Positions 29,397-62,678 of a stretch of DNA of 64,000 nt are shown here, piece after piece. A program made the position numbers and the translations under genes. Source of the stretch: Candidatus Parcubacteria bacterium (lineage in GTDB: Bacteria; Patescibacteriota; Minisyncoccia; Minisyncoccales; JAGMDC01); the NCBI GenBank assembly GCA_023130975.1, contig JAGMAD010000006.1:87187-151186 (forward strand), given 5' to 3'. Each line of letters begins with the position of its first letter. Position 1 is the stretch's first letter. The notes under the pieces are model-generated. The model ran no database searches, had not been told where the DNA came from, and saw nothing but the letters and a program-made list of their open reading frames with translations.

Positions 29397-30311
29397 TTAT
29401 GGCAGCCGCTCTGTCAAGCTGTAAAAATTATATTCTTTCAACATTTCAACAATCTTTTCTTTCCTCTTCGGCTCAAGGGAAGGCGGTTTCCATTGGCACT
29501 TTTCTAAATTAAAATCTATATCAGCGTCCATACGCGCTTTTGCCAAGTCATAAGATAAAAACACCTGGTCTTTGTAGTCCAGCAAAATCTCTTTAACCTT
29601 CGGCTTCAAATCCCAAGCCTCTCCTTTTTCTATGGCTTTATAAAGCTCGGTAATACTGCCGTATTCTTGAAGCAGTTCAGCCGCTCTCTTCTTACCAATG
29701 CCAGTGGCGCCCGGAATATTGTCAGAAGGATCGCCGGCCAAGGCCTTAAAATCAACTACCTGTTTTGGCAAAATCCCGAACCGCTCTTTTACTTTTTCCT
29801 CATCATAAATAACTGTTTCTTTTATACCCTTGCCCAAGGCATAAACCTTGACATTTTTATTCACCAGTTGGAGAGCATCTAAATCACCTGTAAGAATATA
29901 AATCTCAATCTCTGGCCCCCCACCACTTTTAGGATAAAAGTGGTGGGGGGTTTGGGCTATTTTAGCAATAGTAGCAATCAAATCATCTGCCTCAAATTCT
30001 TGTTTTTCAAAAAGGGGAATATTAAAACTTTTTAAAATTTCCTTTATTTTAGGAATTTGGGCATAAAGTTCTTCTGGCGCCTTTGGTCTCTTTGCCTTGT
30101 AGCCAGTAAACATTTTTTGCCGAAAGCTTGGTGCCGGAAAATCAAAACAGGCAGCAATATAGTTTGGTTTTAAGTCCTTTAAGGTTTTTAAAAAAACTAA
30201 TAAAAAGCCATAGACCGCATTAACCAAGACACCTTTTTTTGTTGTTAATGGAGGCAAGGCATGATAAGCCCGATGAACTAAAGCATTACTGTCAATAATT
30301 ACCAATTTCAT
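29397..30311 (-). CDS. 5'-3' exonuclease (FEN / Pol I N-terminal-domain family)
   Basis: Starts MKLVIIDSNALVHRAYHAL and contains ..EADDLIATIAK..ILTGDLDALQLV..GIGKKRAAELL. The ATG at 30311 is preferred over the TTG at 30320. Confidence 0.85.
   Translation of the reverse strand: MKLVIIDSNALVHRAYHALPPLTTKKGVLVNAVYGFLLVFLKTLKDLKPNYIAACFDFPAPSFRQKMFTGYKAKRPKAPEELYAQIPKIKEILKSFNIPLFEKQEFEADDLIATIAKIAQTPHHFYPKSGGGPEIEIYILTGDLDALQLVNKNVKVYALGKGIKETVIYDEEKVKERFGILPKQVVDFKALAGDPSDNIPGATGIGKKRAAELLQEYGSITELYKAIEKGEAWDLKPKVKEILLDYKDQVFLSYDLAKARMDADIDFNLEKCQWKPPSLEPKRKEKIVEMLKEYNFYSLTERLP
29916..29950. repeat. GC-rich palindromic element (family 2) inserted in-frame in the exonuclease gene
   Basis: Sequence is CCCCCCACCACTTTT-aggat-AAAAGTGGTGGGGGG. 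The arms are identical to those of the hairpin at 45551-45585. It encodes ..TPHHFYPKSGGGP... Confidence 0.85.
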
Positions 30312-30323
30312 AATCACCAATGA

Positions 30324-32768: not shown

Positions 32769-35700
32769 TTATTCAAAGTGTGTCCCTAATCCAGCATTGT
32801 AATCTTGAAGAATTTGTGCTGCAGAACGGGCATAATTGTAAATCCTGACCTCGTCGATTGTGCCGTTAAAATGTTCTGTCCCCCAAATTGGAGCTCTTCC
32901 TATTTGTAAATTAGCTGATAACGCTGAAACTATTGCGCCAGGATTTGTCTTTATTCCGTCTTCAACGCCATTCAAATATATTTTTTTGTAACTCGTTCCA
33001 CTTTGAACAGCCGCCACATGATACCAAACGCCTGTTGTGAGCGCGGTTATGCTATTTACGTCATAAAAGGAAGAGAGAGTTACAAATTGCAATTTGTTAT
33101 CGATTGTCACGCGAAAACCATATCCATTAATTCTCCACATCCCTTGTTTGCCTGCGATATGTTGCCATGCCCCTAATGCATTTAGCTTCACCCACGCTTC
33201 AATCGTAATCGAGTCAGTGATATCCAAAGACGAATCGTTGCCGCAGTTGACATAAGTCGCTGAGCCGTCGAAGTCATACGCTGTGCCGTATTGGCCCTGA
33301 ACCCAGCCGCCAGAACCAGGAGTAATGGTGCCGTCATTATTGTTCCAACTTTCGTCAAACGCGGTGGTACCGTTGCCTTCGTTAAACCGCCAATGGCCCA
33401 CAGGCCGCCCGCGGTTGTAGTGATAGCGGATTTCCTCCGTCCCCAGCGCCCGATTGTAAATCCTGACATCGTCTAAAATCCCTGCCATATAATCGCTATT
33501 TGCCTCGCCCATATTAAAACTCGCTGAGGCAATAGCGTCTGCAACAACAACTACATGATTCCATTTACTGGCAGAAAGAGTTGAGCCTGTCGCCCCATTA
33601 ACATAAGTAGTTGAATTAGTGAAGCCGGCAGTCAAATCAATATCATTGCTGGCAATTGAAATATATTGAGTATTATTTATCAATTCTAAAATTCCGTCAT
33701 CAGCATTAGAATCCTTAATCCAAAATTCTGTTGTTTTGACCGAACCAACATTGCCTGCTAAAACATTAGTGGAACCATCAAAACTAAAGCCAGTGCCGTA
33801 TTTTCCCGAAGTATAAGTTTCGGAACCAGTGACTGTTCCATTATGACCTCCGTCACTAATATCATCAACATTTCCTTCAAAATTCCAGTAGCCATTTAAG
33901 CCATAATCAATCATTGCCGCGTGCCCAGTCCCGTCCCCAAACCGGGCGACAAAACCCTCGTTATAATCCGCGCGTATCTCATCCGCGCTCCGCGCGTAAT
34001 CATAAATCCTGATCTCGTCTATTGCGCCGGTGGTATAATCAGAGTTCGCTTCGCCGATTTTGGTGCTGGCGGCTGAAATACCTGTATCTGTGGTTACGGC
34101 TATATGATTCCAGCCAGAAAAAAGCGAACTCGTTTCAATACCATTGACATAAATAGTTGGGCTGGTGAAATTCGTGGCAGTAATAGCGCTGCTGGCTACT
34201 GAAATATAAGTATCATTGTCAATCAATTCTAAAATACCGTCATCTGTTTGACTGGTATTCAGCCAAAATTCCACTGTTTTTATACCGGTGCCAATATTGC
34301 CGCAGTTGACATAAGTCGCTGAGCCGTCGAAGTCATACGCTGTGCCGTATTGGCCTTGAACCCAGCCGCCAGAACCAGGAGTAATAGTGCCGTCATTGTT
34401 GTTCCAGCTTTCGTCAAACGCGGTGGTGCCGCTGCCTTCGTCAAACCGCCAATGGCCTACAGGCCGCCCGCGGTTGTAGTGATACCTTATCTCGTCAGCC
34501 CCCAACACCCGATTATAAATCCTGACCTCGTCGATTGTGCCGTCAAAACACAAAGCTCTATTCGATCTTAAATCTCCAATAGTAAAAACACTAGTCCATG
34601 GGTTAGTACCAACATTATCAAAAGAAAGTTTTTCTACGCCGTTAACATATACCTTGGACGTTGAACCATATATAGCTGTTGCTACAATATGAAACCAATT
34701 TGTTGTGTTAATATTTGCCCCAGAAGTCAAATGACCATCTGAAGATGATTGATAAGCATGAAAATAAATTTCTGTTCCTTGTATTGAAAACCAAAGAGGA
34801 TAGCCTTGTTCAGCACTTGCTGAAGAAGCCATAATTCCGCAATTAAAACCAGTACAATCTATTCTATCTGTTTTAATCCAGCACTCTGCTGTGTATTCAT
34901 TTCCTATCCCCAAATCACCAATACCAACATAATCATCAACCCCGTCAAACTCCAAGGCCCCGCCTTTTTTGCCAGAAGTCCAAGAAGCGCCGGATATTGT
35001 ACCGTCGTTACTATTTGATGAATAATCATTGATAATTGATCCGCCGCCCTCGTCCATTGACCAATAGCCAACCAGCCCGTTGTTCATCATCGCCGCATAG
35101 CTAGTCCCGTCCCCAAACCGCGCCGCAAACCCGGCATTGTAATCAAGGCGAATTTCTCCTGCGGTCCGCTCATAGGCATAAATTTTAACATCGTCAAGTT
35201 TTCCGTCTAACCCACCGTCAGTATAACCTAATTTAATAGAGGTAAGAGAAACATCAGAAGTAGAAGTTAAAACAACATAATGCCAGTTAGTAGTAATAGT
35301 GTCAGTATCAACGCCATCAACAAAACAATTATCCCAGGCGCCATAAGACATTACTCCAGCGCTTACTGTTATGCCTGTGCCGTCGCCGGAGATAATACTT
35401 TCAGTAGTGGTATCAAGATTTGTCCAAAAACTAATGGTTCTGGCGTTGCTGATATTATTGGCAATGGAAACATAATCACCTGAAGCGTCAGCAAACTGAC
35501 CAGCGCTTCCGAATTTACCAGTAGCCCAATGTGTTCCAGTACCGTTCCAGGTACCGTTGTTGTTATTATCGGTAGTGTCATAAGCGGTGGTACCGGTGCC
35601 TTCGTTGAATTTGTATTCTGCGCAGGGTCCGCCGCGGTTGTAGTGATACCGGATTTCCTCTGTACTCAACGCCCGATTGTAAATCCTGACCTCGTCGATT

Positions 35701-36383
35701 GTGCCGTTGAAATATCTTGTGCTACCACCACGTGAACCTATATAAAAGTTTTCGACACTTGATGGTGGTGCTAAAGGTTCAGAAGCATCTGTTCCTCTAA
35801 CACCATTAACATAAATTATTGTATTTGTTCCATCATATACTCCTGTAATATGATGCCATTGTAATGAACTTATTGATGAACCGACGGCACGCTTGGTTAA
35901 TAGATCCCCATTACTGTAAAAATACGGAGTATTATCTATCATAAGTAAATCATATACGATAGGACTTCTTCCCGCTATTGTTTGTGTGCCCTTCCAACCA
36001 TCCCCTTTCACCCACGCCTCAATCGTAATCGCATCAGTGATATTAAGCGAGGTATCACTACCGCAGTCAATATAATCATTCATGCCGTCGAAGTCCAGCG
36101 CACCGTTGATTTTGCCGTTAGACCAAGAAGGCATATTAGCCACAGTGCCGTTGCCAAGCGCACCGTTGTTGACACTGCCAGTTGCCGCGGCATTGTAGGC
36201 CGTGTCACCCATTCCTTCGTCAAATGACCAATAACCAACCAGTCCCCGGGTCATTGTGTCATCGGGAATAGTTCCTCCGCCCCCGAACCAACCTCCTATT
36301 CCAATAATAAAACCAGCTGTCATTAAAGTTCCGGCAGCAGTAATTATTGATATCCACTTTTTACGGGAAAAGGTTAGTTTCAT
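32769..36383 (-). CDS. Membrane-anchored protein with six LamG/ConA-like lectin modules
   Basis: 1204-aa ORF with an N-terminal TM helix. Six modules each end (I/L)D(E/D)(V/I)(R/K)IY..R.....EI...YN.G, as in Laminin_G_3-type domains. Confidence 0.7.
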   Translation of the reverse strand: MKLTFSRKKWISIITAAGTLMTAGFIIGIGGWFGGGGTIPDDTMTRGLVGYWSFDEGMGDTAYNAAATGSVNNGALGNGTVANMPSWSNGKINGALDFDGMNDYIDCGSDTSLNITDAITIEAWVKGDGWKGTQTIAGRSPIVYDLLMIDNTPYFYSNGDLLTKRAVGSSISSLQWHHITGVYDGTNTIIYVNGVRGTDASEPLAPPSSVENFYIGSRGGSTRYFNGTIDEVRIYNRALSTEEIRYHYNRGGPCAEYKFNEGTGTTAYDTTDNNNNGTWNGTGTHWATGKFGSAGQFADASGDYVSIANNISNARTISFWTNLDTTTESIISGDGTGITVSAGVMSYGAWDNCFVDGVDTDTITTNWHYVVLTSTSDVSLTSIKLGYTDGGLDGKLDDVKIYAYERTAGEIRLDYNAGFAARFGDGTSYAAMMNNGLVGYWSMDEGGGSIINDYSSNSNDGTISGASWTSGKKGGALEFDGVDDYVGIGDLGIGNEYTAECWIKTDRIDCTGFNCGIMASSASAEQGYPLWFSIQGTEIYFHAYQSSSDGHLTSGANINTTNWFHIVATAIYGSTSKVYVNGVEKLSFDNVGTNPWTSVFTIGDLRSNRALCFDGTIDEVRIYNRVLGADEIRYHYNRGRPVGHWRFDEGSGTTAFDESWNNNDGTITPGSGGWVQGQYGTAYDFDGSATYVNCGNIGTGIKTVEFWLNTSQTDDGILELIDNDTYISVASSAITATNFTSPTIYVNGIETSSLFSGWNHIAVTTDTGISAASTKIGEANSDYTTGAIDEIRIYDYARSADEIRADYNEGFVARFGDGTGHAAMIDYGLNGYWNFEGNVDDISDGGHNGTVTGSETYTSGKYGTGFSFDGSTNVLAGNVGSVKTTEFWIKDSNADDGILELINNTQYISIASNDIDLTAGFTNSTTYVNGATGSTLSASKWNHVVVVADAIASASFNMGEANSDYMAGILDDVRIYNRALGTEEIRYHYNRGRPVGHWRFNEGNGTTAFDESWNNNDGTITPGSGGWVQGQYGTAYDFDGSATYVNCGNDSSLDITDSITIEAWVKLNALGAWQHIAGKQGMWRINGYGFRVTIDNKLQFVTLSSFYDVNSITALTTGVWYHVAAVQSGTSYKKIYLNGVEDGIKTNPGAIVSALSANLQIGRAPIWGTEHFNGTIDEVRIYNYARSAAQILQDYNAGLGTHFE

Positions 36384-36460
36384 AGTTGGTTTAATTTTAA
36401 ATGATAAATTATTAAAAGTTCAAACAAAAAACAAAAAAATACAAGTTAAATATTAAATTC

Positions 36461-36509
36461 CAATGACCAAATCCCAATGCCCAACCAAATCATAAATCCT
36501 AAATCCCAA
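36461..36509. repeat. Intergenic 7-nt periodic tract (CCAATGA CCAAATC CCAATGC CCAACCA AATCATA AATCCTA AATCCCA)
   Basis: Read directly from the sequence. Confidence 0.8.
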
Positions 36510-36902
36510 TTATTTCTTTGTATTAGAATTGCGGATTATGGCAGCTAAAATCAAATTTAATTCCTGTGCTTCTTTCCATAAGATTCTTATTTCATCTCTA
36601 AATTGAGGAAAAGTGTGAGCAATTATTCGCAACCAGTATTTTGTCTCTTTTGTTTCTTTCTTAGCAATAGCAATTTTGTTCAAAAAATCCTTTTTAGAAT
36701 TGGCTTCATCTGCTTCACTATAATTTGCTCCTATGCTGGTTCCAGACCTTACCAATTGATTTATTAAAGGTTTAGTGATTGAATTCTGCGGAAGCTTTCT
36801 CAAAAAATCAACAATATCCTTACTAAACTTTATAGTTCTTTCCTCAAGGTCGTATTTTTGTTTGGGATTTATTGAATTGGGATTTGATTGGTCATTGGTC
36901 AT
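36510..36902 (-). CDS. Four-helix-bundle protein (23S rRNA IVS protein / Avd-like family)
   Basis: Contains ..LINQLVRSGTSIGANYSEADEANSKKDFLNKIAIAKKETKETKYWLRII... The probable start is the ATG at 36902 (MTNDQSNPNSINPKQKYDLEER), and the track start is 36974. Confidence 0.7.
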   Translation of the reverse strand: MTNDQSNPNSINPKQKYDLEERTIKFSKDIVDFLRKLPQNSITKPLINQLVRSGTSIGANYSEADEANSKKDFLNKIAIAKKETKETKYWLRIIAHTFPQFRDEIRILWKEAQELNLILAAIIRNSNTKK

Positions 36903-36972
36903 TGGGATTTGGGGCTTAAATAAATAAGTTTTGGCTTTTTTGTTTTGTGTTTTGGATTTGCATAGATTAGAC

Positions 36973-37014
36973 ATTGAAAATTCATTGATAATTGGTCATT
37001 GAAAATTGAAAATT
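36973..37014. repeat. Six heptamers ending in ATT (ATTGAAA ATTCATT GATAATT GGTCATT GAAAATT GAAAATT)
   Basis: Read directly from the sequence. The tract runs up to the stop codon of the 2162-aa gene. Confidence 0.8.
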
Positions 37015-40000
37015 TATTCTTCCGGGGGTGGTCCTTCAGCTGGTGGTTCTTCAGGTGGAACATAGGTTCCGAGTGCTTCTTGCTCTTCTGTTGGTTTTTC
37101 GTCGTCAATCCCGCAATCGCTCAAATCAGTGCAAGTCCGGGTTTGGGTAAAGGGCTCTTCGCTGGCAACTGTTTCTGGCAAAGGCGACCATTCGATGCAG
37201 AACCAATCAGGGATACAGACAGGCGGCTCCGGCTCAGGTTCAGGTTCCGGTTCAACACCATCTTCTGGCGACGTGGTTGTGTCAACTGGAGGAATATCTA
37301 AGATATCTGGAACATCTGGTGGGACATTTGGTTCGCTCCCTTCGGGAGCGGCTGGCTCAGGCGACTGACCATCAGTCACCAATAATTGATCATTGATCTC
37401 TGGACAAGGGCCTTGTTCCTTAACCCATTCGCCGTTTTCAATCCAGGTACACCAGATTTCGCCAGTGGTTTTATCCTGCATCTCAATTTGTTCAGCCACT
37501 ACTGTTTTTGCCTTTAATTTTTGGACTTCTAAAGTGCCGTATTCACTGACAATTAAGCCGAGAGGAAAGAGATTATTGATAATTGATAATTGGTCATCAT
37601 TGAGAATATTACCCTCCTCGTCAGTGATAACTGCCAAGTCATAACCCTGCCAGCTGACATTAACCAGGGTCATTACCTTGCCGATTTCGCTTTCCATTTC
37701 TACGCAATTTTTAACTTTTATATCGCTTCTCCCTTGTTCTTCGTTTTTAATAAAGCTGATTTCACAATTAGTTACTGTGCCGTCAAACGGCTCAAATGCC
37801 CGGCCAATAATTCTGCCAGCGCCAGTGGCTTTCATTGCCACGCCTGGCGACGAAGAAGAAGTCAGGAAATCGCCGATTTCAACAGGCCCATTTTCCAGAT
37901 TAACTTTGACCGGCACTCGACCGATTAAAGAAACCGGTCGGGTTTTAGCTATAACCTCGCCTGCATCAGTGCTAATTTCGCCATAGCCGCCGCCCAGAGT
38001 AGTGGATGGCTGGCTGGCAATCACTCCCACTAAATTAGAATCGTAAGCCGAAGCAGATTTTTCAACAAAGTATTTTGACTCATCAGTGATTTCTTCAATG
38101 GCATTGGTTTTGAGAATAGAAACAACATCGCCTGGCTCAACTGACAGGTCAAAAGTATAATAACTTTCAGCAATATCAGCGCCGCTGTCAGCATGAGTAA
38201 TTTCCAGCCAATTACTACCGTCATAAACAAGCACAGCAGTATCTTGAGTGTTATCCAAAGTAAGATGGCCGCTTAACTGAAGATTTCCAGTAGCGTCTTT
38301 CAAGACCACGCTCCGGTCAGTATGTTCTGCCCGAAGCACTAAAATATCGCCTTCGCTTCCGCCATTGATAGTATCTAAATCATCAGTAGCACCATCGCTT
38401 TCAGTGTCAATCTTATGGTAGGTCTGGGTTGCTGTAACCACCCCTGAAGCAATAGTTAATTCTGTAGCACCAGCGAAGTTTGCCATAGCAATCTCGGAGA
38501 TATCTCCGCCCGTGGCATTAGAGGAAGGCAGAGTACCATTAGTAGTATCGCTGCAGTCATCAGCATAATGGGTGGTCGGCGCAACAATGGCAATGCCGTC
38601 AGCCACGGCTGACGCGGTTTCGCCAGCTGACATAGAAGAAACTCTTCGGTAAAGTTTATAAGAAGTGGCGCCAGGAACCGCACTCCAGGTAACAGTGACT
38701 TTTTCGTCGTCACTATCGCCTGACATTGCCTGGGAGCCCTCTGCGGAAATAGTGGTCTCGCCATTGTCATTTAAAGCAGTGACCCGGTAATAATATGTGC
38801 CGCTACTGGAGCAGGAACCGCCGCTGGCAGTGATGCTGGTAGCAGGCGTGCCGGTCTGGGAAATATCCAGTTTGTTAATAGTAATATTGCCGCCAGTTAA
38901 AGTTAAATTCTGCTTAACTGTTAAGTCGCTGCCGCCGCTTCCAGTGCCGCCAACAGCCACATCGCCGTCAGGTCCGACCATAAACGCGTAGCCGCCGCCA
39001 TCCATACCCAAGACCTTAAACCCGCCGTAGACCAAATCGCTATGCTGAACATTCACCAGAACATCACCGCCTTTGGCATAAGCTAAGTGATAAATAGAGT
39101 TGGCTGCCGGGTCGCCCAAAGTAGCATCCCAGTCAGCCACAGTAATTGTATTATTTGCATTGTCAGTAATTGTTTGGGTCTGGCCCTTGCCAGTTCCGGC
39201 AATAATGGAAATACTGCCGTTAATCCATTCGTCAGCGGTCCAGGATTTATTACTGTCAGTTAAAACAGGATCAGAGAAAGAAGTACATATCCCGGAATCA
39301 CCAGTTGCTTCATTGGAACGGGTAGTCAGGGTTAAGTTTTCTGGATGATTGGGATCGCCGGCAGAAATAGTCAAATTCCCCTGGGAAGTAATATATGATG
39401 TGCCTGTACTTAAGAAAGCCAGGTCATAGTCAATGCCGACATCACCGCCGACATCAACACTCAATGGCCTGCTAAGCACAATATTCGGGTTGCCGATTTC
39501 AATCATTGTTGTCAGGGAACCGCCTGAAGCTGTTTTGAAAAGCATCTTGCCCGTGTAATTTGTATTGTCAATGTTGGTAATAGCTGATTCAATTGCGCCA
39601 ATTATTGTGGCGCCGCCAGTTGTTCTGTTGACAACCATATTTATTTTTGTTCCAGAAGCAACAGTGGCAGTGCCTAAATTTTCTATCCGCAAACCAGCTG
39701 TCACTGCGCCAGCAGAATCAGTTCGAACTGTTAACTTATCAGTCGGCGCCGTTGTACCAATCCCGACATCACCGGCAACAACAATCAAGCCGTAATTAGT
39801 AGTGGCACCGCTGGCAGAAAAGTAGCCAGCAATGTTGGTAGAAGTTGTGCCAGTGTTGGCAACTGAAGAATATAATCCATAAGTAGTATGAGAAGCATTG
39901 GTATTGGCGCCGGAGCGGGCAAGATTGAGAAGTTTTGAGGTCCCACTTGCTCCTCCGGCAGTAGAACTGGAAGTAATATCTAAACCAGTGCCTGTTGTCA

Positions 40001-43000
40001 AACCATCAACTGAAAGAGCTATTCCAGTGCCAGTGGTAATTGAATCACCAGTTAATTCAAGAAGCCCTGTAGTATCATTGGAAACAACATCAAGTTTGTA
40101 ATCTGGGCTGGTGGTGCCGATGCCCAGGTTGCCGCCAAAATAGGCGTCTCCGCTGCCGGAGATGTTGCCGGCGCTGAATAAACCCCCAGAACCGATATTA
40201 ACCCCACCGCTAATCTGGAGTTGGCCCTGAGCGATAATGTCATTTCTTACCTGCAGATTTCCTGCCTCTAAGCTGTGCACCACTCCTGATGTAGCCTCTA
40301 TTCCTGAGACATCGATTACCTTAAGGTCATCGCTGTCCACATCAACCACATAGGCATATCTACCTGAGACATAGACAGAGTAAGGGCCAGTGCCAATGGC
40401 TAAACTCCCGGCTAAGCTGGGTGAAGTCGGGTCTGAGACATCGATTACCTTAAGGTCATCGCTGCCAAGATCAACCACATAGGCATATCTGCCCGAGACA
40501 TAAACAGAGCGAGGCAGAGTGCCAATACCTAAGCTCCCGGCTAAGCTGGGTGAAGTGGGGTCTGAGACATCGATTACCTTAAGGTCATCGCTGTCAGAAT
40601 CAACCACATAGGCATATCTGCCTGAGACATAAACAGAGTAAGGGTCAGTGCCAATGGCTAAACTCCCGGCTAAGCTGGGTGAAGTCGGGTCTGAGACATC
40701 GATTACCTTAAGGTCATCGCTGATAGAATCAACCACATAAGCATATCTGCCTGAGACATAGACAGATATAGGGGCAAGGCCAATGCCCAAACTCCCGGCT
40801 AAGCTGGGTGAAGTCGGGTCTGAGACATCGATTACCTTAAGGTCATCGCTGACAGCATCAACCACATAGGCATATCTGCCCGAGACATAAACAGAGCGAG
40901 GCAGAGTGCCAATACCTAAACTCCCGGCTAAGCTGGGTGAAGTCGGGTCTGAGACATCGATTACCTTAAGGTCATAGCTGATAGAATCAACCACATAAGC
41001 ATATCTGCCTGAGACATAGACAGAGTAAGGGTAACTGCCAATGCCCAAACTCCCGGCTAAGCTGGGTGAAGTGGGGTCTGAGACATCGATTACCTTAAGA
41101 TCATTGCTGCTAATATCAACCACATAGGCATATCTGCCCGAGACATAGATAGAATAAGGGCCAGTGCCAATGCCCAAACTCCCGGCTAAAACAGGGTCTG
41201 CGGGTAATTGAAGGAAATTGCCTTTCTCAATAGTCAATTTCTCACTTGGGCTGGTGGTGCCGATGCCGACATTAGCATTAAGTATGTTAATCTCATCTGT
41301 TGCTTGATTGTCAAACTCTATTCTTCCAGCGCTTCCACCCAATCCAATCCAGGCATCATCTGGCATAACAATATTTCCGCTTGATGATATTGACAATGCT
41401 CCAGCTGTTATAGTTCCAGTTGTTGTTAAATTCTCATCGTCAAAAGATATGTCGCCGCCAGTGGCAGTAAAAGTTAAATCACCGCTGCTGTCCACTGCCA
41501 CAGAAAGATAATTAGAAGCGTCATAGGCGACAGTGAGTTGAGGAGTGCTTGTTGAAGTGATTGTTGTTTGGCCGCCATTAGCAATAACAAAGTTGTCTGT
41601 GCCATCGGTTTGGAAACGAGCAATATTGCCTGTACCTTGCTGATCTACCCGCAAGCCGTCTGATGAAGAAGTTGCTGTAAAAACAGCAGAGCCGGAATAG
41701 GTCTGGGCGCCGCTAACAGTAAGGTCGCCGCCGACAGTAACATTACCGTCTGTTTCAACTGTAAAGTTAGTGTCGCCAACAGTTAGGTCAGCACCAGTAA
41801 CATCCAAGCCAGCAGTAGCATCAACATTTCCGCCAAGTGTAATCTGGCCTGTTGATTGAGTCAAAGTATTATTGATGGTCACTGGTCCGCTAAAAGTAGA
41901 AGTGGCAGCCACGGTTAATTTATCAGAAGTTTCTCCGCCTAAGACAGTATCGTCGCCAACTCCTAAATCATGAACAGCAGCAGAACCAGAAACGCCTAAG
42001 GAAGCAAAAGTGCCATGTCCGCCAACCTGAACTCCTTGCGAACCAATATATATTGGAGCGCTGGAAACAACTGTTTGAGGAGGAGTGGCTTGAAGTTTTT
42101 TAGTAATTTTTTGGAGGGTTTCTATATCAGCTTCCCAACCAGTGATTTCAGCTAATTGGGTTTTGAATTCAGCCAATGATTCCTCGTCAAGAACTTTTAA
42201 TTCTTTAGTGATTTCTTTGATGGGTTCTATTTGGGTAATTTTTTGAATCTCTTTGATAATTTCTTTTTGAGGCAGACCTTCTCTTTCCATTTTTTCAATC
42301 CTTGCCTGAAGGATTTCTAATTCTTGTTTTAACTCCTCATCTATTTTTTCTTTTTCAGCAACGATTTTCTTTTCTGTCCTCCCCCCCCAAGGAGAAACGA
42401 GAAACTCGTATGCTTTAACAAACGGACTTTTGATTGCCTGATATGTCTGGCTTAATTTTTGTTCTATCGCATCATTGGTATTTTGATATCCTTGTTTGAA
42501 AGTAATGCCTGTCTTGACTATTTTCTGGCCAATGTTTGACGGTGCTTCTTTTATTATTTTACCTACAACAACGGCCTGTTCTCCATACCATTGGCTAAAT
42601 CTTTGAAAAACATTAATGCCGTATTTGAGGTCGTCGCCTGTCTCGCCAGTTACCTCGGCTAAAAAGGAGTAAGTACTCTTACTTGTTGACAAAATACTTG
42701 CTCCTAAATCATAAAAGTAATTTTTTGTTTCTGCCTTTAATTTGTCTGACTCTATTATTACTTTTTTCCTCCATTTATTTAATGATCTATTCATTTCTGC
42801 TAAAAATTGACTGAGAAATGTTTTTGAATTTGCTAAAGAGGTATCTATTACTGTTTTTGAGTTTATCACAGAACTGCCTATTATTGTTGTTAATTCATCC
42901 AAAACATTGTCAGCTTTTTGAGAGACAACCGATAGTCCTTTGGAGCTAATGCCGGCAACAAAACTCATTGTTTGTTTGAAATCCTGAACCGGATGCAAAT

Positions 43001-43502
43001 CAATTTCAGACAGGACTGCAGAGGTATTTTCAAAAGTTGCGGAGATACGATCTCTGCTGATTTTTACATCTTCTAAAGCACTGGAAGTAGCAGAGAACAG
43101 TTCTTTGCTGGTTTTTGTCAGAGTATCCTTGACCGACCAAATAGCATCTTTACCAATCCATTCAACAAGTTCAGGATTGTCCTGAACCTGCTGAAGGACA
43201 AAGACAATGCCAGTTGTAAGTAAAGAAAAAACCAAAACTCCAGCTATTGCGTATCGTAAAGCGTATCGGAGTTTTGGTTGCTTGAATAAGCTTGAAAACG
43301 ATATTCCTGCTTTTTTAACCTCTTTGTGTTTCTTTGAATTGCTCTTTAGGTATTCCTCCAGCCATTCTTTTTTAGTTACCCAGTTCCTGCCGAATTTAAT
43401 TGCCTTTAATTTTCCTTGTCTGGCCCTCAATGATAAATACTCCTGTGAGTAATCGCAGTATCGGGTTGCTTGTGTAAGAGAGATATAATCGTTTTCAGAC
43501 AT
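37014..43502 (-). CDS. Giant surface protein: N-terminal HTH, TM helix, coiled coil, beta-helix-like repeats, seven LVIVD repeats, FN3-like domain, Pro/Glu-rich tail
   Basis: 2162-aa ORF. Residues 5-55 (DYISLTQATRYCDYSQEYLSLRARQGKLKAIKFGRNWVTKKEWLEEYL) look like an excisionase/MerR-type HTH. The TM helix is at about aa 84-104 (43191-43253). The FN3-like segment is VTVTWSAVPGATSYKLYRR (about 38650-38700). The tail is EPEPEPEPEP. Confidence 0.6.
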   Translation of the reverse strand: MSENDYISLTQATRYCDYSQEYLSLRARQGKLKAIKFGRNWVTKKEWLEEYLKSNSKKHKEVKKAGISFSSLFKQPKLRYALRYAIAGVLVFSLLTTGIVFVLQQVQDNPELVEWIGKDAIWSVKDTLTKTSKELFSATSSALEDVKISRDRISATFENTSAVLSEIDLHPVQDFKQTMSFVAGISSKGLSVVSQKADNVLDELTTIIGSSVINSKTVIDTSLANSKTFLSQFLAEMNRSLNKWRKKVIIESDKLKAETKNYFYDLGASILSTSKSTYSFLAEVTGETGDDLKYGINVFQRFSQWYGEQAVVVGKIIKEAPSNIGQKIVKTGITFKQGYQNTNDAIEQKLSQTYQAIKSPFVKAYEFLVSPWGGRTEKKIVAEKEKIDEELKQELEILQARIEKMEREGLPQKEIIKEIQKITQIEPIKEITKELKVLDEESLAEFKTQLAEITGWEADIETLQKITKKLQATPPQTVVSSAPIYIGSQGVQVGGHGTFASLGVSGSAAVHDLGVGDDTVLGGETSDKLTVAATSTFSGPVTINNTLTQSTGQITLGGNVDATAGLDVTGADLTVGDTNFTVETDGNVTVGGDLTVSGAQTYSGSAVFTATSSSDGLRVDQQGTGNIARFQTDGTDNFVIANGGQTTITSTSTPQLTVAYDASNYLSVAVDSSGDLTFTATGGDISFDDENLTTTGTITAGALSISSSGNIVMPDDAWIGLGGSAGRIEFDNQATDEINILNANVGIGTTSPSEKLTIEKGNFLQLPADPVLAGSLGIGTGPYSIYVSGRYAYVVDISSNDLKVIDVSDPTSPSLAGSLGIGSYPYSVYVSGRYAYVVDSISYDLKVIDVSDPTSPSLAGSLGIGTLPRSVYVSGRYAYVVDAVSDDLKVIDVSDPTSPSLAGSLGIGLAPISVYVSGRYAYVVDSISDDLKVIDVSDPTSPSLAGSLAIGTDPYSVYVSGRYAYVVDSDSDDLKVIDVSDPTSPSLAGSLGIGTLPRSVYVSGRYAYVVDLGSDDLKVIDVSDPTSPSLAGSLAIGTGPYSVYVSGRYAYVVDVDSDDLKVIDVSGIEATSGVVHSLEAGNLQVRNDIIAQGQLQISGGVNIGSGGLFSAGNISGSGDAYFGGNLGIGTTSPDYKLDVVSNDTTGLLELTGDSITTGTGIALSVDGLTTGTGLDITSSSTAGGASGTSKLLNLARSGANTNASHTTYGLYSSVANTGTTSTNIAGYFSASGATTNYGLIVVAGDVGIGTTAPTDKLTVRTDSAGAVTAGLRIENLGTATVASGTKINMVVNRTTGGATIIGAIESAITNIDNTNYTGKMLFKTASGGSLTTMIEIGNPNIVLSRPLSVDVGGDVGIDYDLAFLSTGTSYITSQGNLTISAGDPNHPENLTLTTRSNEATGDSGICTSFSDPVLTDSNKSWTADEWINGSISIIAGTGKGQTQTITDNANNTITVADWDATLGDPAANSIYHLAYAKGGDVLVNVQHSDLVYGGFKVLGMDGGGYAFMVGPDGDVAVGGTGSGGSDLTVKQNLTLTGGNITINKLDISQTGTPATSITASGGSCSSSGTYYYRVTALNDNGETTISAEGSQAMSGDSDDEKVTVTWSAVPGATSYKLYRRVSSMSAGETASAVADGIAIVAPTTHYADDCSDTTNGTLPSSNATGGDISEIAMANFAGATELTIASGVVTATQTYHKIDTESDGATDDLDTINGGSEGDILVLRAEHTDRSVVLKDATGNLQLSGHLTLDNTQDTAVLVYDGSNWLEITHADSGADIAESYYTFDLSVEPGDVVSILKTNAIEEITDESKYFVEKSASAYDSNLVGVIASQPSTTLGGGYGEISTDAGEVIAKTRPVSLIGRVPVKVNLENGPVEIGDFLTSSSSPGVAMKATGAGRIIGRAFEPFDGTVTNCEISFIKNEEQGRSDIKVKNCVEMESEIGKVMTLVNVSWQGYDLAVITDEEGNILNDDQLSIINNLFPLGLIVSEYGTLEVQKLKAKTVVAEQIEMQDKTTGEIWCTWIENGEWVKEQGPCPEINDQLLVTDGQSPEPAAPEGSEPNVPPDVPDILDIPPVDTTTSPEDGVEPEPEPEPEPPVCIPDWFCIEWSPLPETVASEEPFTQTRTCTDLSDCGIDDEKPTEEQEALGTYVPPEEPPAEGPPPEE
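40304..41206 (-). repeat. Seven tandem 129-nt (43-aa) LVIVD-type repeats, probably a seven-bladed propeller
   Basis: CTGAGACATCGATTACCTTAAG recurs at 40304, 40433, 40562, 40691, 40820 and 40949, with a 2-mismatch variant (..AAGATC) at 41078. The unit is YAYVVDxxSxDLKVIDVSDPTSPSLAGSLGIGxxPxSVYVSGR. Confidence 0.9.
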
Positions 43503-43530
43503 AAATTAATGAGATCCGATATTAAAAATT

Positions 43531-43551
43531 TTGCTTAATTCGGTTAAGCAA
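43531..43551 (-). terminator. Hairpin TTGCTTAA-ttcgg-TTAAGCAA after tsaE
   Basis: 8-bp stem. The minus strand continues AAUUUUUAAU. Confidence 0.45.
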
Positions 43552-43607
43552 TTATTACTTTATTTTCTTATAATCAAGAGGGCTTGTCAAATGAAAACTG
43601 TGGATAA

Positions 43608-44066
43608 CTATCGGACGTCAAAAACAGTAATTTTTCTGGTGTTTTTGTTAATGAACTTGAACTTTATTTTGATAATGTTTTTGGGCAGGATTTTTTCTAT
43701 TTTTTCTGACCATTCTATGGCTATAATATTTTCTGGGTTAGAAATAATCTCCTGAAAACCAATTTCTAAAATTTCCTCTGGTTTTTGAATACGGTAGCAA
43801 TCAATGTGGATTAGATATTGGATATTAGATTTTGGATTTTGGATTTGGAATTTCTTCATTATTACAAAGGTGGGGCTAAGGATTTTTTCTTTAATGCCAA
43901 CTCCTTTGGCAAAGCCCTGAAGAAAAGTTGTTTTGCCTGCGCCCAAATCTCCAACTAATCCAATTAGTAAAGCGCCTTTCTTTTGAGGAAGTTTTAGAAT
44001 TTTTTTTGCCAAGTTTTGTCCCAGCTTTTTTGTTTGAGATGAATTAAAGGTTTGATATTTTTCCAT
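43608..44066 (-). CDS. tsaE: tRNA t6A biosynthesis ATPase TsaE
   Basis: 152-aa ORF with Walker A GDLGAGKTTFLQGFAKG and the typical ..SPTF.. and ..HIDCYR.. motifs. Confidence 0.85.
   Translation of the reverse strand: MEKYQTFNSSQTKKLGQNLAKKILKLPQKKGALLIGLVGDLGAGKTTFLQGFAKGVGIKEKILSPTFVIMKKFQIQNPKSNIQYLIHIDCYRIQKPEEILEIGFQEIISNPENIIAIEWSEKIEKILPKNIIKIKFKFINKNTRKITVFDVR
43808..43853. repeat. Degenerate heptamer array (ATATTGG ATATTAG ATTTTGG ATTTTGG ATTTGGA) inside tsaE
   Basis: Read directly from the sequence. It encodes ..KFQIQNPKSNIQYLI.. on the minus strand. Confidence 0.7.
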
Positions 44067-44130: not shown

Positions 44131-44221
44131 TTGCGAAGCAAAAAATCAAGGTTCTTGCCAAAGGCAAGGTTCTTAATTACGAAGTAATCAAGGTTCTTGA
44201 GCGATAGCGAAAGGTTCTTAT
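44131..44221 (+). repeat. Array of TT(A/G)CGAAG(T/C)AA and (C/A)AAGGTTCTT motifs, including copy B of the 48-nt element (44173-44221)
   Basis: Sequence is ttgcgaagcaa aaaatcaaggttcttg ccaaaggcaaggttctt aattacgaagtaatcaaggttcttgagcgatagcgaaaggttcttat. AAGGTTCTT occurs four times here and twice at 6806-6832. Confidence 0.85.
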
Positions 44222-45549: not shown

Positions 45550-45719
45550 ACCCCCCACCACTTTTGTTCCAAAAGTGGTGGGGGGAAAAATAGCCCAAGG
45601 CTGGGGGCAAAACTTCAGTTTAAAACCATAGTTCAGAATTTCTCTGAGGAATAATCCGGCACTACCTGGGTTATCCGTTAACTAAGGGAAATTCCTACGT
45701 CCCCAGCCTTGGGCTATCT
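45543..45719 (-). ncRNA. Candidate small structured RNA (about 175 nt), identity unknown
   Basis: It has its own TTGACA-16-TATAAT promoter. A 17-bp perfect closing helix (45590-45606 with 45701-45717) encloses about 94 nt containing short hairpins. It ends with U5, a 15-bp GC hairpin and UUUAUU. Confidence 0.5.
45551..45585 (-). terminator. GC-rich hairpin (family 2 palindrome), U-tract on the minus strand only
   Basis: Sequence is CCCCCCACCACTTTT-gttcc-AAAAGTGGTGGGGGG. The minus strand continues TTTATTCTCC and the plus strand continues AAAAATAG. Confidence 0.65.
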
Positions 45720-58496: not shown

Positions 58497-58517
58497 TTGA
58501 AAATTGAAAATTAATCC

Positions 58518-59492
58518 TTACTTTCCTTCGCAGCAAAAGTAATTATCCATAAAATCTCTAATTGCTTCTCGGCATTCCAGGCTGTCTTTATTTGTTTCGC
58601 AGATTGGTTGAATGTTCTCTTCTATAAATTCCTTAAACATACTGGTTTCAGAAGCATAATAAGGATAGCAATGGGGGAAAGGAATTATTTTATCTTCAAA
58701 ATAACCTAAGATATTAAGTTCACCTAAATATATTTTATCCAAAGCTATTTCACAACTCAAGGTCCTCATATTTGTTTTTGTCTCTTTAAGCGCAAATTCA
58801 TAACCAATAAGACATTCCTCTAATTTTACTCGCGAATTAAGAAGTTTATTTAGAATTTTCCAGCGATTCGGGTCCTCATCCGATAAATTTTCTGCTTCTA
58901 TTAAGTTTATTATTCTCTCAGTAGAATCCGCGATGTTTTGAGGTCTGGGCTCAAGGGAGTTGTAATAATCTTCAATATTATTATAATGATTTTCTATTTC
59001 ATTGTAGGTATTATTTATTTCGTTCATTGGACAAGGTTCACCTGTACAAGGAGTACAAGAGCATTTGACACAAATACCTTCAATTTCTATACAGTTACAA
59101 TCACCGGGATCACAAGGAGTATCAGCGCAATCTTTACAACTGTCTGGGCCGGTCAAGTCAATTAACTTCCATGCCGCTTCTATTTCTAATTCTGCTTCGT
59201 CTCTTTCTGCTAATGCTTCCTCTACTTCTGCTGTTCCTTCATTATAAATATTTTCAAGTTCATCAATTATTTTTTGAGCAAAATCTTCAGTTTCATCAGT
59301 GGTCTCACCAATAGGAATTTTGCCTTTTGGAAACTCGGCATATTTTGTTTCTATAACTGGATCTACTACACACTTTTCTTTTTCTCCCCAAGCAAAAACC
59401 TGGCTATTTTTATTATAGAATAAACTTGAACATAACAAAAGCAAAGAAATCAAGGAAATAAAAATAATTTTGTGGATATTGCTATTTTTCAT
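58518..59492 (-). CDS. Secreted Cys-rich acidic protein
   Basis: Starts MKNSNIHKIIFISLISLLLLCSS (signal peptide) and contains the Cys cluster CKDCADTPCDPGDCNCIEIEGICVKCSCTPCTGEPCP. The ATG at 59492 overlaps the upstream stop by 11 nt. The track start is 59567. Confidence 0.5.
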   Translation of the reverse strand: MKNSNIHKIIFISLISLLLLCSSLFYNKNSQVFAWGEKEKCVVDPVIETKYAEFPKGKIPIGETTDETEDFAQKIIDELENIYNEGTAEVEEALAERDEAELEIEAAWKLIDLTGPDSCKDCADTPCDPGDCNCIEIEGICVKCSCTPCTGEPCPMNEINNTYNEIENHYNNIEDYYNSLEPRPQNIADSTERIINLIEAENLSDEDPNRWKILNKLLNSRVKLEECLIGYEFALKETKTNMRTLSCEIALDKIYLGELNILGYFEDKIIPFPHCYPYYASETSMFKEFIEENIQPICETNKDSLECREAIRDFMDNYFCCEGK

Positions 59493-60831: not shown

Positions 60832-60838
60832 TTTAAGT

Positions 60839-62170: not shown

Positions 62171-62175
62171 AGTAA

Positions 62176-62206: not shown

Positions 62207-62211
62207 CAAGT

Positions 62212-62676: not shown

Positions 62677-62678
62677 AA

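What the first reader, a model, noticed from the sequence alone, without database searches (positions are those of the whole stretch)
37014..43502. 2162-aa protein joining a cytoplasmic excisionase/MerR-type HTH to a transmembrane helix and a giant extracellular adhesin-like body
Seen:
- Residues 5-55 (DYISLTQATRYCDYSQEYLSLRARQGKLKAIKFGRNWVTKKEWLEEYL) have the spacing of a small winged HTH.
- A single hydrophobic helix follows at about aa 84-104.
- About 2050 further residues contain a coiled coil, Gly/Thr/Ser-rich beta-helix-like repeats, seven LVIVD repeats, an FN3-like segment and a C-terminal Pro/Glu tail (EPEPEPEPEP) with a small 4-Cys patch.

Known: membrane-tethered one-component regulators such as ToxR and CadC combine a cytoplasmic DNA-binding domain with an external sensor. 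Those have small periplasmic domains.

Inference: either this is a very large surface sensor that couples contact or adhesion to DNA binding, or the HTH-like fold has been repurposed as a cytoplasmic anchor. Either option deserves a look, because the gene sits with another giant lectin-like gene and an Avd-like gene.
Basis: partly seen in the sequence, partly recalled or inferred. Interest (0 to 1): 0.6.

Follow-up and report, generated by a model that had tools for sequence, protein, structure and literature searches.

The report
Membrane-anchored surface fibre with cytoplasmic HTH
This 2162-residue protein of an ultra-small (Patescibacteria/CPR) bacterium joins a cytoplasmic excisionase-type DNA-binding fold and one membrane helix to a giant, variable surface fibre; it belongs to an undescribed family of thousands of such proteins whose genes share a conserved promoter signature.

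Summary
ORF 37014-43502 (-) is intact and identical to MCK4454314.1 ("hypothetical protein", Candidatus Parcubacteria). Residues 4-55 model confidently as a Xis/BldC/MerR-type winged helix, a divergent HTH_17 below the Pfam threshold. A basic linker and one TM helix (about aa 85-104, N-in) follow. The roughly 2050-residue acidic ectodomain includes 7 LVIVD blades.

The architecture recurs widely. An exhaustive HMMER search finds 2037 cluster representatives (99-6890 aa). Nearly all carry 1-3 copies of the same roughly 50-aa module, then one TM, then ectodomains of very different size and content. All credible hits are Patescibacteria; none are in IMG/VR.

Family genes sit at conserved positions: downstream of ligA-ftsW, or downstream of tsaE as in this window. 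They share a promoter signature: CCGATA repeats and a perfect DnaA-box 9-mer (TTATCCACA) about 9 nt upstream of the -35.

Best reading, inferred and not shown: a membrane-tethered DNA-binding module, acting like ToxR/VtrA, that controls or tethers the fibre genes, with an adhesin/depolymerase-like ectodomain. A RodZ-like protein anchor remains a serious rival. No DGR is present. This is a new variant of a known kind; interest is moderately high.

The parts
37014..43502 (-). Whole gene: 2162-aa type-II (N-in) membrane-anchored surface protein, identical to MCK4454314.1
43338..43493 (-). Cytoplasmic winged-helix module (aa 4-55), a divergent HTH_17/excisionase-type fold. It is the conserved signature of the family.
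   Evidence: Pfam/NCBIfam sub-threshold full-length match. AF2 pLDDT 93-95. Foldseek hits Xis, RdfS, BldC, TraN, RacA. Family consensus YISLxEAxKYCxYSQEYLSLRARQGKLKAvKFGRNWVTKKEWLEEYL.
43251..43337 (-). Basic cytoplasmic linker (aa 56-84; 9 K+R, 1 D+E; pI 10.5)
   Evidence: The positive-inside pattern holds across the family.
43191..43250 (-). Single transmembrane helix / signal anchor (aa 85-104)
   Evidence: Hydropathy peak at aa 85-103. AF2 helix at aa 76-108.
42315..43190 (-). Juxtamembrane extracellular region (aa 105-396). It shares family motifs (e.g. FQRFSQWYGEQ, NDAIEQKL) and matches no Pfam family.
41793..42314 (-). Conserved 'neck' module (aa 397-570: KEIIKEIQKITQIEPIKEITKE...APIYIGSQGVQVGGHGTFASLGVSGS...), found in 72 of 108 family members of at least 450 aa
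   Evidence: jackhmmer on family members
41190..41792 (-). G/S/T-rich beta-rich segment (aa 571-771) with a NVGIGTTSP-type motif. No Pfam family.
40305..41189 (-). Seven LVIVD repeats (aa 772-1066; predicted 7-blade beta-propeller), encoded by 129-nt tandem repeats that are about 90% identical
   Evidence: Pfam PF08309 E = 6e-50, 7 stretches. TIGR02276. DNA repeat family D1.
38175..40304 (-). Further G/S/T-rich beta-rich region, including the unverified FN3-like motif (aa 1067-1776)
   Evidence: Composition. No Pfam match.
37641..38174 (-). Conserved C-terminal all-beta domain (aa 1777-1954; ADIAE...GRVPVKV..G.I..GD.LT.S..PG.AMKA). It is shared with other Paceibacteria fibre proteins and resembles the fold of phage capsid decoration/cement proteins.
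   Evidence: Homologues. AF2 pLDDT above 90. Foldseek 8pkh, 5wk1 and 9kzj, all weak matches.
37017..37385 (-). Acidic Pro/Glu-rich tail (aa 2040-2162) with EPEPEPEPEP and four Cys (2096, 2102, 2124, 2130)
43599..43614 (-). Promoter-upstream element CCGATAG-TTATCCACA. It holds the only exact DnaA-box 9-mer in the 64-kb window, 8 nt upstream of the -35.
   Evidence: The same arrangement occurs upstream of 49 of 92 family genes.
43562..43590 (-). Sigma-70-like promoter: TTGACA, 17 nt, GAAAAT
   Evidence: Conserved in homologous loci.
43514..43551 (-). 5' leader with a perfect 8-nt inverted repeat (TTGCTTAA-ccgaa-TTAAGCAA, 43531-43551) and TATCGGAT (43514-43521), the inverted partner of the upstream CCGATA
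   Evidence: Sequence read

Best explanation
What it is (shown):
- An intact gene on the core chromosome of a Parcubacteria (Patescibacteria/CPR) bacterium.
- It encodes a bitopic, N-in membrane protein.
- Its parts are a roughly 55-residue cytoplasmic winged helix of the Xis/BldC/MerR (HTH_17) type, a basic linker, one TM helix, and a roughly 2050-residue acidic ectodomain.
- The ectodomain has family-conserved juxtamembrane and 'neck' parts followed by lineage-specific modules: G/S/T-rich beta repeats, a 7-blade LVIVD propeller, a phage-decoration-like beta domain, and a Pro/Glu/Cys tail.
- It is one member of a very large Patescibacteria-restricted family. In that family 1-3 copies of the same, nearly invariant 50-aa module plus one TM helix are fused to ectodomains of about 20 to more than 6000 aa. 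Those ectodomains carry adhesin, depolymerase or tail-fibre-type modules.

How it most likely works (inferred):
- The ectodomain is a surface fibre for attachment to, or degradation of, a partner cell's surface.
- The cytoplasmic module still binds DNA while tethered to the membrane.
- Family genes carry a shared promoter signature: CCGATA direct or inverted repeats around the promoter, and a perfect DnaA box 9 nt upstream of the -35.
- I therefore propose that the module binds at these promoters.
- The pool of fibre proteins would then feed back on, and co-ordinate, expression of the fibre genes.
- It would also hold the loci at the membrane, as ToxR/VtrA-type membrane-bound regulators do.
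- The DnaA box would add replication or cell-cycle input.

Confidence by step:
- Architecture and family membership: about 0.95.
- N-in topology: about 0.85.
- DNA binding retained: about 0.6.
- Binding at the CCGATA-type sites of its own promoters: about 0.3.
For: Fold and sequence of the module:
- AF2 pLDDT 93-95 for aa 10-50.
- Foldseek best compact matches are DNA-binding Xis 4j2n (rmsd 1.8 A over 47 residues, prob 0.99), RdfS, BldC, TraN and RacA.
- The HTH_17 match covers the full profile.
- The column conservation string (my reading of it) shows that helix 2 and the wing (YSQEYLSLRARQGKLKAxKxGRNW.T) are 80% or more conserved. This is the canonical DNA-contact face. The exposed positions of helix 1 vary.
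- The module is basic: pI 9.5.

Recurrence of the architecture:
- 2037 cluster representatives at E <= 1e-3 and 864 at E <= 1e-10.
- 89 of 93 hits of at least 300 aa have 1-3 HTH modules followed by one TM helix.
- 44 of 47 giant full-length homologues keep the HTH and TM.
- 80 of 80 genome loci show the same architecture.
- The positive-inside rule holds across the family.

Promoter signature:
- Exact TTATCCACA occurs 65 times in 734 kb of loci. 36 copies lie within 200 nt upstream of family genes (1.25% of the space), and most of the rest lie 200-800 nt upstream.
- CCGATA density is 7.25 per kb in the -250..0 bin against about 0.5 per kb background.
- In the window, the only exact DnaA box and the only CCGATA cluster in 64 kb lie at this gene's promoter.

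Precedents:
- BldC, a single-domain MerR-like protein, binds direct repeats as cooperative multimers (PMC5859096).
- The membrane-bound regulators VtrA/VtrB capture their target loci at the membrane (PMC9977878).

Ectodomain repertoire in relatives: Beta_helix/NosD, Peptidase_S74, Laminin_G_3, collagen, pectinesterase and deacetylase domains.
Against:
- The HTH_17 match is below Pfam's threshold, and the Foldseek E-values are not significant because the domain is short.
- The HTH is nearly identical across paralogues and species. That is unusual for specific transcription factors and equally fits a conserved protein partner.
- The recognition helix is too invariant to test co-variation with the DNA motifs.
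- The CCGATA sites have no fixed spacing or position.
- The motifs could be bound by other proteins: DnaA for TTATCCACA, or an unrelated regulator for CCGATA.
- Family members with almost no ectodomain argue against outside-in signalling as the general role.
Confidence: 0.45

Rival explanations
1. RodZ-like anchor. The winged helix no longer binds DNA. Instead it docks the fibre onto a conserved cytoplasmic protein: a cytoskeletal, division or pilus component such as FtsA/PilM, FtsZ, PilB or the SEDS machinery. This would fix where the fibres sit on the cell.
For: - The module is almost invariant across paralogues and species, including exposed residues. This fits one conserved protein partner.
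- 62 of 84 loci place the gene directly downstream of ftsW/rodA.
- The window-type locus lies next to pilB, and a minor-pilin-like cluster lies upstream of ligA-ftsW.
- Precedent, from my own knowledge: RodZ uses a cytoplasmic HTH to bind MreB.
- A conserved PPxNLP-like linker motif occurs in 142 of 373 members.
Against: - All close structural neighbours are DNA binders, and the conserved face is the basic DNA-contact face.
- The synteny block (pilin-like genes, ligA, ftsW) is functionally mixed, so it may only reflect inherited gene order.
- This model gives no reason for the promoter motifs.
Confidence: 0.25
2. Nucleoid-membrane tether, like RacA or Noc. The module binds DNA with little or no sequence specificity, or binds many chromosomal sites. 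It links the chromosome to the envelope in a cell-cycle-controlled way. The variable ectodomain would be a secondary addition.
For: - The fold resembles RacA and Xis-type architectural DNA binders.
- 1-3 tandem copies would raise avidity.
- The promoters carry a perfect DnaA box, and many loci are next to ftsW.
- Short members consisting of little more than HTH plus TM exist.
Against: - This gives no reason why a tether should carry hypervariable giant fibre ectodomains.
- The window holds only one CCGATA cluster, at the gene's own promoter, so there is no sign of many chromosomal sites in this stretch.
Confidence: 0.15
3. Contact-released regulator, by regulated intramembrane proteolysis in a Notch-like manner. 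Pulling on or binding of the fibre triggers cleavage near the TM helix and frees the HTH to act on DNA.
For: - The architecture fits: adhesive ectodomain, single TM with Gly/Ser/Thr residues, cytoplasmic DNA-binding fold.
- A conserved linker motif lies next to the TM in many members.
Against: - No protease site or partner protease was identified.
- Members without an ectodomain cannot work this way.
- The idea rests on architecture alone.
Confidence: 0.08
4. Annotation or assembly artefact: a wrong start codon, or a small HTH gene fused to a surface-protein gene.
For: The 129-nt LVIVD repeats are about 90% identical and could disturb assembly of that part.
Against: - The frame is continuous.
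- The identical protein appears in an independent NCBI record, and a 1-residue variant on another contig.
- The HTH-TM-ectodomain order recurs in hundreds of independent assemblies.
- The promoter lies upstream of the annotated ATG.
- The next Met comes after the TM helix.
Confidence: 0.02
5. Target of a diversity-generating retroelement (DGR), together with the neighbouring Avd-like gene.
For: An Avd-like gene (23S_rRNA_IVP) lies immediately downstream. The LamG plus Avd pairing recurs in L005.
Against: - No reverse transcriptase domain among the 41 longest ORFs of the window scanned with Pfam.
- No template/variable repeat pair in 28-46 kb.
- No C-type-lectin variable region was detected.
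Confidence: 0.02

Closest known systems
ToxR / TcpP / CadC / VtrA-VtrB membrane-bound one-component regulators
   Same: Bitopic N-in topology: a cytoplasmic N-terminal winged-helix DNA-binding domain, one TM helix and an extracytoplasmic C-terminus. These proteins can bind promoters while membrane-inserted and capture loci at the membrane (PMC9977878; PMC7496328).
   Different: - Their DNA-binding domain is OmpR/PhoB-type, not Xis/MerR-type.
- Their outer domain is a small sensor, not a 20-6000-aa fibre, adhesin or enzyme array.
- They are single regulators. This is a multi-paralogue family sharing one nearly invariant HTH, often in 2-3 tandem copies.
RodZ
   Same: A cytoplasmic N-terminal HTH, one TM helix and an external C-terminal domain. 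The HTH is used as a protein (MreB) anchor. It is functionally linked to the SEDS/PBP machinery (own knowledge).
   Different: RodZ has an XRE-type HTH and a small conserved DUF4115 domain. It has no giant variable ectodomain. No Pfam match to the RodZ families was found here.
Excisionase / BldC / TraN / RacA single-domain MerR-like winged helices (HTH_17, PF12728)
   Same: They share the roughly 50-residue beta-alpha-alpha-wing-alpha fold. Xis and BldC bind direct repeats as head-to-tail multimers (PMC5859096). This resembles the tandem modules and the repeated CCGATA sites seen here.
   Different: Those are small soluble proteins, or have soluble partner domains. None is fused to a TM helix and a surface fibre. 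Sequence similarity is sub-threshold.
Phage tail fibres/tailspikes, and giant surface proteins of CPR bacteria and Omnitrophota
   Same: Relatives have modular G/S/T-rich beta-fibre bodies with beta-helix depolymerase-like modules and Peptidase_S74 chaperones. The C-terminal beta domain resembles a phage decoration protein.
   Different: This protein is anchored in the cell membrane by an N-terminal signal anchor preceded by an HTH. The module has no relatives in IMG/VR viral contigs. No PHROG match.

Membership tests
HTH_17 / excisionase-family winged helix (PF12728, TIGR01764) | Sequence match at or above the curated score threshold | tested here: not met
   20.3-22.9 bits against a cut-off of 27. 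TIGR01764: 16.9 against 28.8. The match does cover profile positions 1-50 of 51. 8 of 18 family modules hit HTH_17 at E <= 0.01 (best 1.6e-6), and some homologues carry a precomputed PF12728 hit.
HTH_17 / excisionase-family winged helix (PF12728, TIGR01764) | Beta-alpha-alpha-(beta-hairpin wing)-alpha fold | tested here: met
   AF2 elements: E6-8, H9-12, H20-28, E34-37, E40-44, H45-65, with pLDDT 93-95. Foldseek: Xis 4j2n rmsd 1.8 A over 47 residues; BldC 6ama rmsd 1.7 A over 48 residues; RdfS 8dgl.
HTH_17 / excisionase-family winged helix (PF12728, TIGR01764) | Binds DNA | not testable with these tools
   Indirect evidence only: a basic, conserved helix-2/wing face and conserved motifs at family promoters.
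ToxR/CadC-like membrane-bound one-component regulators | N-terminal cytoplasmic DNA-binding domain, single TM helix, extracytoplasmic C-terminal domain | tested here: met
   Hydropathy, AF2 helix and positive-inside charge pattern. Topology is predicted, not measured.
ToxR/CadC-like membrane-bound one-component regulators | OmpR/PhoB-type winged helix (Trans_reg_C) | tested here: not met
   No Trans_reg_C hit. The only HTH family matched is HTH_17.
ToxR/CadC-like membrane-bound one-component regulators | Compact periplasmic sensor domain that gates transcription | tested here: not met
   The ectodomain is about 2050 aa of fibre, propeller and repeat modules. In the family it ranges from about 20 to more than 6000 aa.
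RodZ | XRE-type HTH (HTH_25) and C-terminal DUF4115 | tested here: not met
   No such Pfam hits at E <= 1.
RodZ | HTH binds MreB | not testable with these tools
   No interaction test was possible. In the window, MreB_Mbl appears only as a weak secondary Pfam match to the PilM/FtsA-like protein.
DGR variable protein with Avd accessory gene | Reverse transcriptase plus a template/variable repeat pair with a variable region at the C-terminus | tested here: not met
   No RT domain among the 41 longest ORFs of the window scanned with Pfam. No TR/VR-like repeat in 28-46 kb.
LVIVD-repeat beta-propeller proteins (PF08309) | Tandem LVIVD repeats above threshold | tested here: met
   166.8 bits against 20.2, 7 stretches.
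Tail-fibre/tailspike proteins with a C-terminal intramolecular chaperone (Peptidase_S74) | Peptidase_S74 domain at the C-terminus | tested here: not met
   Absent from the window protein. Present in family members P0127, P0296, P0306 and P0321.
New Patescibacteria 'HTH-TM-fibre' family (defined here) | 1-3 N-terminal YSQEYLSLRARQGKLKA-type modules, then one TM helix within about 10-260 aa, then a variable ectodomain that often carries the 'neck' module | tested here: met
   Window protein: module at aa 4-55, TM at aa 85-104, neck at aa 397-570. Closest relatives P0124/P0285 are 82% identical over the N-terminus.

The most novel reading that the evidence does not exclude
The N-terminal winged helix, the first part of the protein to leave the ribosome, binds the conserved CCGATA/TTATCCACA sites at its own gene. 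Once the signal anchor inserts, it pins that locus to the membrane. Giant fibre genes would then be transcribed, translated and exported in place ('self-recruiting transertion'). The membrane pool of fibres, or tension or cleavage on contact with a host cell (Notch-like), would feed back on the whole fibre regulon. This would be a minimal outside-in and assembly-control device in bacteria that have very few regulators.
Probability: 0.15. Interest if true: 0.9.

Novelty: new variant of a known kind. Interest (0 to 1): 0.66.

Why it matters
Patescibacteria (CPR) make up a large share of bacterial diversity. Most are uncultured. They are thought to live attached to other cells, and they encode few recognisable regulators.

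This finding identifies a family of thousands of surface-fibre proteins that all carry the same cytoplasmic DNA-binding-type module. Their genes share one promoter signature, including a perfect DnaA box. Public records label them 'hypothetical' or name them after an ectodomain repeat.

Together these give a concrete, testable handle on three questions:
- How these cells build, position and regulate their attachment apparatus.
- Whether surface state is coupled to the chromosome or the cell cycle.
- Whether a Xis-type fold has been recruited for membrane-tethered regulation.

The conserved 50-aa module is also a practical marker for finding the hypervariable surface proteome of these organisms in metagenomes.

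Tried and rejected
- Literature: three full-text searches (Patescibacteria + helix-turn-helix + transmembrane + giant; PF12728/HTH_17; excisionase + Parcubacteria + surface protein) found no description of this architecture. This is absence within that library only.
- PHROGs and PDB sequence searches of the full protein gave no hits. A profile of the HTH modules against PDB gave only spurious ankyrin-consensus matches.
- DGR hypothesis rejected: no RT domain among the 41 longest ORFs scanned, and no TR/VR repeat pair.
- Phage origin of the module rejected: there are no relatives in IMG/VR.
- oriC explanation for the DnaA box: the cumulative GC skew is lowest at about 42-44 kb, gene orientation flips at about 44.1 kb, and dnaA lies 10 kb away. 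However, the same box at the same distance from the -35 occurs at family genes in two different conserved loci across dozens of species. It is therefore a promoter element.
- Co-variation between the recognition helix and the promoter motif could not be tested, because the helix is nearly invariant in the loci available.
- Spacing analysis of CCGATA sites found no dominant period.
- The coiled-coil claim was tested with a heptad-periodicity test against shuffles and was not significant.
- The FN3 claim was tested with Pfam on the segment and gave no fn3 hit.
  - The first search for related loci attempt, with the diverse alignment A2, failed because no stretch was conserved enough. It worked with A3.
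  - The afdb50 fold library was unavailable.
  - The search for homologous proteins listed only hits up to about 1.75 times the query length in two searches. The first list of short proteins was therefore misleading until the exhaustive search.

Full report
**1. The observation**

The ORF at 37014-43502 (minus strand) starts with ATG, runs 2162 codons without a stop, and is identical to NCBI MCK4454314.1, [quoted passage not shown].

The window is core chromosome of a low-GC Patescibacteria genome. It carries dnaA-dnaN, nusA, RNase Y, clpP, tyrS, a class A PBP, yidC, type IV pilus genes and four tRNAs.

- The HTH. Pfam HTH_17 aligns end to end but below threshold, at 20-23 bits against a cut-off of 27. 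TIGR01764 is also sub-threshold.
- A single hydrophobic helix at aa 85-103.
- Seven LVIVD repeats, encoded by 129-nt tandem repeats about 90% identical.
- G/S/T-rich stretches, the EPEPEPEPEP tract and four terminal Cys.

Two details were not verified:
- The K/E-rich stretch at aa 376-470 shows no significant heptad periodicity.
- The "FN3-like" motif has no Pfam fn3 support.

A downstream start is implausible. The next Met (aa 179) lies beyond the only TM helix. A TTGACA-17-GAAAAT promoter precedes the annotated ATG. The HTH is conserved in frame in hundreds of homologues.

**2. The N-terminus**

An AF2 model of aa 1-128, built on 23 sequences, has mean pLDDT 87.6 and 93-95 across aa 10-50. 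It shows a strand, two helices, a beta-hairpin wing and a third helix, followed by a long helix at aa 76-108.

Against the PDB, the compact matches are:
- mycobacteriophage Pukovnik Xis (rmsd 1.8 Å over 47 residues, prob 0.99);
- RdfS excisionase;
- BldC (rmsd 1.7 Å over 48 residues);
- TraN;
- RacA.

All are DNA-binding MerR-like single domains. The E-values are not significant, as expected for a 50-residue domain.

Aa 1-58 have pI 9.5 and the linker pI 10.5, while aa 400-2162 have pI 4.1. Across 311 family members, the 15 residues before the TM helix carry a mean net charge of +1.78 against +0.05 after it. The HTH is therefore predicted to be cytoplasmic and the body external.

**3. A large, unrecognised family**

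An exhaustive HMMER search with aa 1-110 found 2037 cluster representatives (50% identity clusters) at E <= 1e-3 and 864 at E <= 1e-10. Lengths run from 99 to 6890 aa.

- Of 93 hits of at least 300 aa, 89 have one to three HTH modules followed by a single TM helix.
- The HTH-to-TM gap has a median of 40 residues across the family.
- 44 of 47 full-length giant homologues (1200-3617 aa) keep the HTH and TM.

The module is remarkably invariant, with consensus YISLxEAxKYCxYSQEYLSLRARQGKLKAvKFGRNWVTKKEWLEEYL. Helix 2 and the wing are 80% or more conserved, while the exposed positions of helix 1 vary.

The ectodomains are highly diverse.
- About two-thirds of longer members share a juxtamembrane region and a "neck" module, which is aa 397-570 in the window protein.
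- Beyond that they carry Beta_helix/NosD, LVIVD, Laminin_G_3, Peptidase_S74, collagen, FG-GAP, pectinesterase, deacetylase or even intein modules.
- The window protein's conserved C-terminal beta domain (aa 1777-1954, pLDDT above 90) weakly resembles phage capsid decoration proteins.

Public names are "hypothetical protein" or reflect an ectodomain repeat. No Pfam, NCBIfam or PHROG family covers the architecture. Three literature searches found no description.

A scan of one genome per species found 441 confirmed copies. The best 80 are in genomes labelled Nealsonbacteria, Minisyncoccales, Paceibacterota, Komeilibacteria, Portnoybacteria or generic Patescibacteria. A few carry implausible automatic labels. 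None was found in IMG/VR viral contigs.

**4. Genomic position**

In 62 of 84 loci the family gene lies directly downstream of an ftsW/rodA-type gene, with ligA and a pilin-like cluster further upstream.

The window represents a second conserved position: LTD protein and pilB on one strand, then tsaE, then the family gene, then LamG/Avd/5'-3' exonuclease on the other. The same position is seen in L005, L006 and L010, where the family protein is 1131, 443 and 338 aa. So the position is fixed while ectodomain length varies more than six-fold.

The TPR membrane protein downstream in the window is 53% identical to the one that follows the ftsW-linked gene in L001. Several loci have two or three family genes in tandem.

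**5. A shared promoter signature**

Upstream regions of 49 of 92 family genes show this arrangement: (C)CGATA(G), then TTATCCACA(G), then 8-10 nt, then TTGACA, then 17-18 nt, then GAAAATAAnnTAAT. Further TATCGGATA-type elements follow before the ATG.

- TTATCCACA is the consensus DnaA box (own knowledge).
- In 734 kb of loci there are 65 exact copies. 36 lie within 200 nt upstream of a family gene in gene orientation, which is 1.25% of the search space. Most of the others lie 200-800 nt upstream of such genes.
- CCGATA hexamers reach 7.25 per kb in the -250..0 bin, against about 0.5 per kb elsewhere.
- In the window, the single exact TTATCCACA (43599-43607) and the only CCGATA cluster in 64 kb lie at this gene's promoter.
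- The dnaA upstream region has only two one-mismatch boxes.

The same arrangement occurs at both conserved loci in many species, so it is a promoter element and not oriC.

**6. Interpretation**

Shown:
- the gene is real;
- the fold of the N-terminal module;
- the single TM helix and the charge asymmetry;
- the family, its taxonomic range and its synteny;
- the promoter signature.

Inferred: the module is cytoplasmic and most likely still binds DNA. The arguments are that its conserved basic face is the canonical DNA-contact face, and that its fold neighbours bind DNA, in BldC's case as cooperative multimers on direct repeats (PMC5859096).

A nearly invariant HTH and a nearly invariant set of promoter motifs go together across species. 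I therefore favour a membrane-tethered DNA-binding role at the family's own promoters. This resembles how ToxR/VtrA-type proteins work and capture loci at the membrane (PMC9977878). The ectodomain would be an attachment or depolymerase fibre and not a ligand sensor. DnaA would be a likely second input.

This is not a ToxR-family member: the HTH type and the ectodomain both fail that test.

The main rival is a RodZ-like protein anchor. The extreme conservation and the neighbourhood of ftsW and pilB fit it, but the DNA-binder fold neighbours and the basic face do not favour it. A nonspecific nucleoid tether and a proteolytically released regulator remain possible. An artefact or a DGR target are effectively excluded.

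**7. Verdict**

It is a new variant of the bitopic "cytoplasmic HTH, TM, external domain" theme: a Xis-type fold serves as the common cytoplasmic handle of a hypervariable surface-fibre family restricted to Patescibacteria, and the genes share a cis-regulatory signature. The mechanism remains untested. Simple binding and topology experiments, and whole-genome motif scans, would decide between the models.

Noticed in passing
window 43514-43614 (-); loci L001-L084 upstream of family genes: A perfect DnaA-box 9-mer, TTATCCACA, sits about 9 nt upstream of the -35 of roughly half of all family genes and is flanked by CCGATA/TATCGGATA repeats. It is the only exact copy in the 64-kb window, although dnaA-dnaN lie 10 kb away.
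   Followed up: yes
window 44148-44219 (tsaE | pilB intergenic): Four direct copies of AAGAACCTT(G) lie within about 70 nt between the divergent tsaE and pilB genes. A similar GCAAGAACCTTC occurs upstream of the family gene in L008. This may be an operator or iteron-like array.
   Followed up: no
window 38000-42000: The giant gene is much more GC-rich (0.47) than its surroundings (about 0.36). The cumulative GC skew of the window is lowest at about 42-44 kb, where gene orientation also flips.
   Followed up: partly
window 29916-29950 and 45551-45585: Two near-identical 35-nt G/C-clamped hairpins (CCCCCCACCACTTTT...AAAAGTGGTGGGGGG). The second lies directly after the pilB stop codon; the first falls inside the 5'-3' exonuclease ORF (29397-30320). 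They look like a shared terminator-type element.
   Followed up: no
window 40175-41248: The LVIVD blades are encoded by 129-nt tandem repeats 88-92% identical at the DNA level. This suggests recent amplification, and copy number could be misassembled. A database variant differs by one residue (D1016A) inside this array.
   Followed up: partly
window 32769-36974; L005, L015, L021, L053: A multi-Laminin_G_3 (LamG) protein gene repeatedly follows family genes. In the window and in L005 an Avd-like 23S_rRNA_IVP gene accompanies it, without any reverse transcriptase nearby. Avd-like genes also sit between ligA and ftsW in L047 and L080.
   Followed up: partly
L048, L050, L060, L077, L079 (locus coordinates about 5400-6000): Downstream of ftsW, a short family gene (118-212 aa: HTH, TM and almost nothing else) is directly followed by a long one or by a large gene lacking the HTH hit (L050: 852 aa). 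Many contigs, including near-complete genomes (L038, L040, L082), end inside family genes.
   Followed up: no
P0167 (1598 aa family member), also P0297 and P0311: An intein (Pfam PF14890 in the precomputed hits) is inserted within the extracellular fibre part of some family members (P0167 and P0311; P0297 lacks the HTH hit).
   Followed up: no
family-wide, between HTH and TM: A PPxNLP-like motif (e.g. PPENLPIE) occurs in the cytoplasmic linker of 142 of 373 members. It is absent from the window protein and its closest relatives, which have FKQPK(L/F)RYA instead.
   Followed up: partly
window 57138-63986: Three paralogous genes with T4SS_pilin domains (about 450 aa each) lie next to a TraG/VirB4-like ATPase gene. 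This looks like a conjugation or type-IV-secretion-like cluster close to the replication genes.
   Followed up: no
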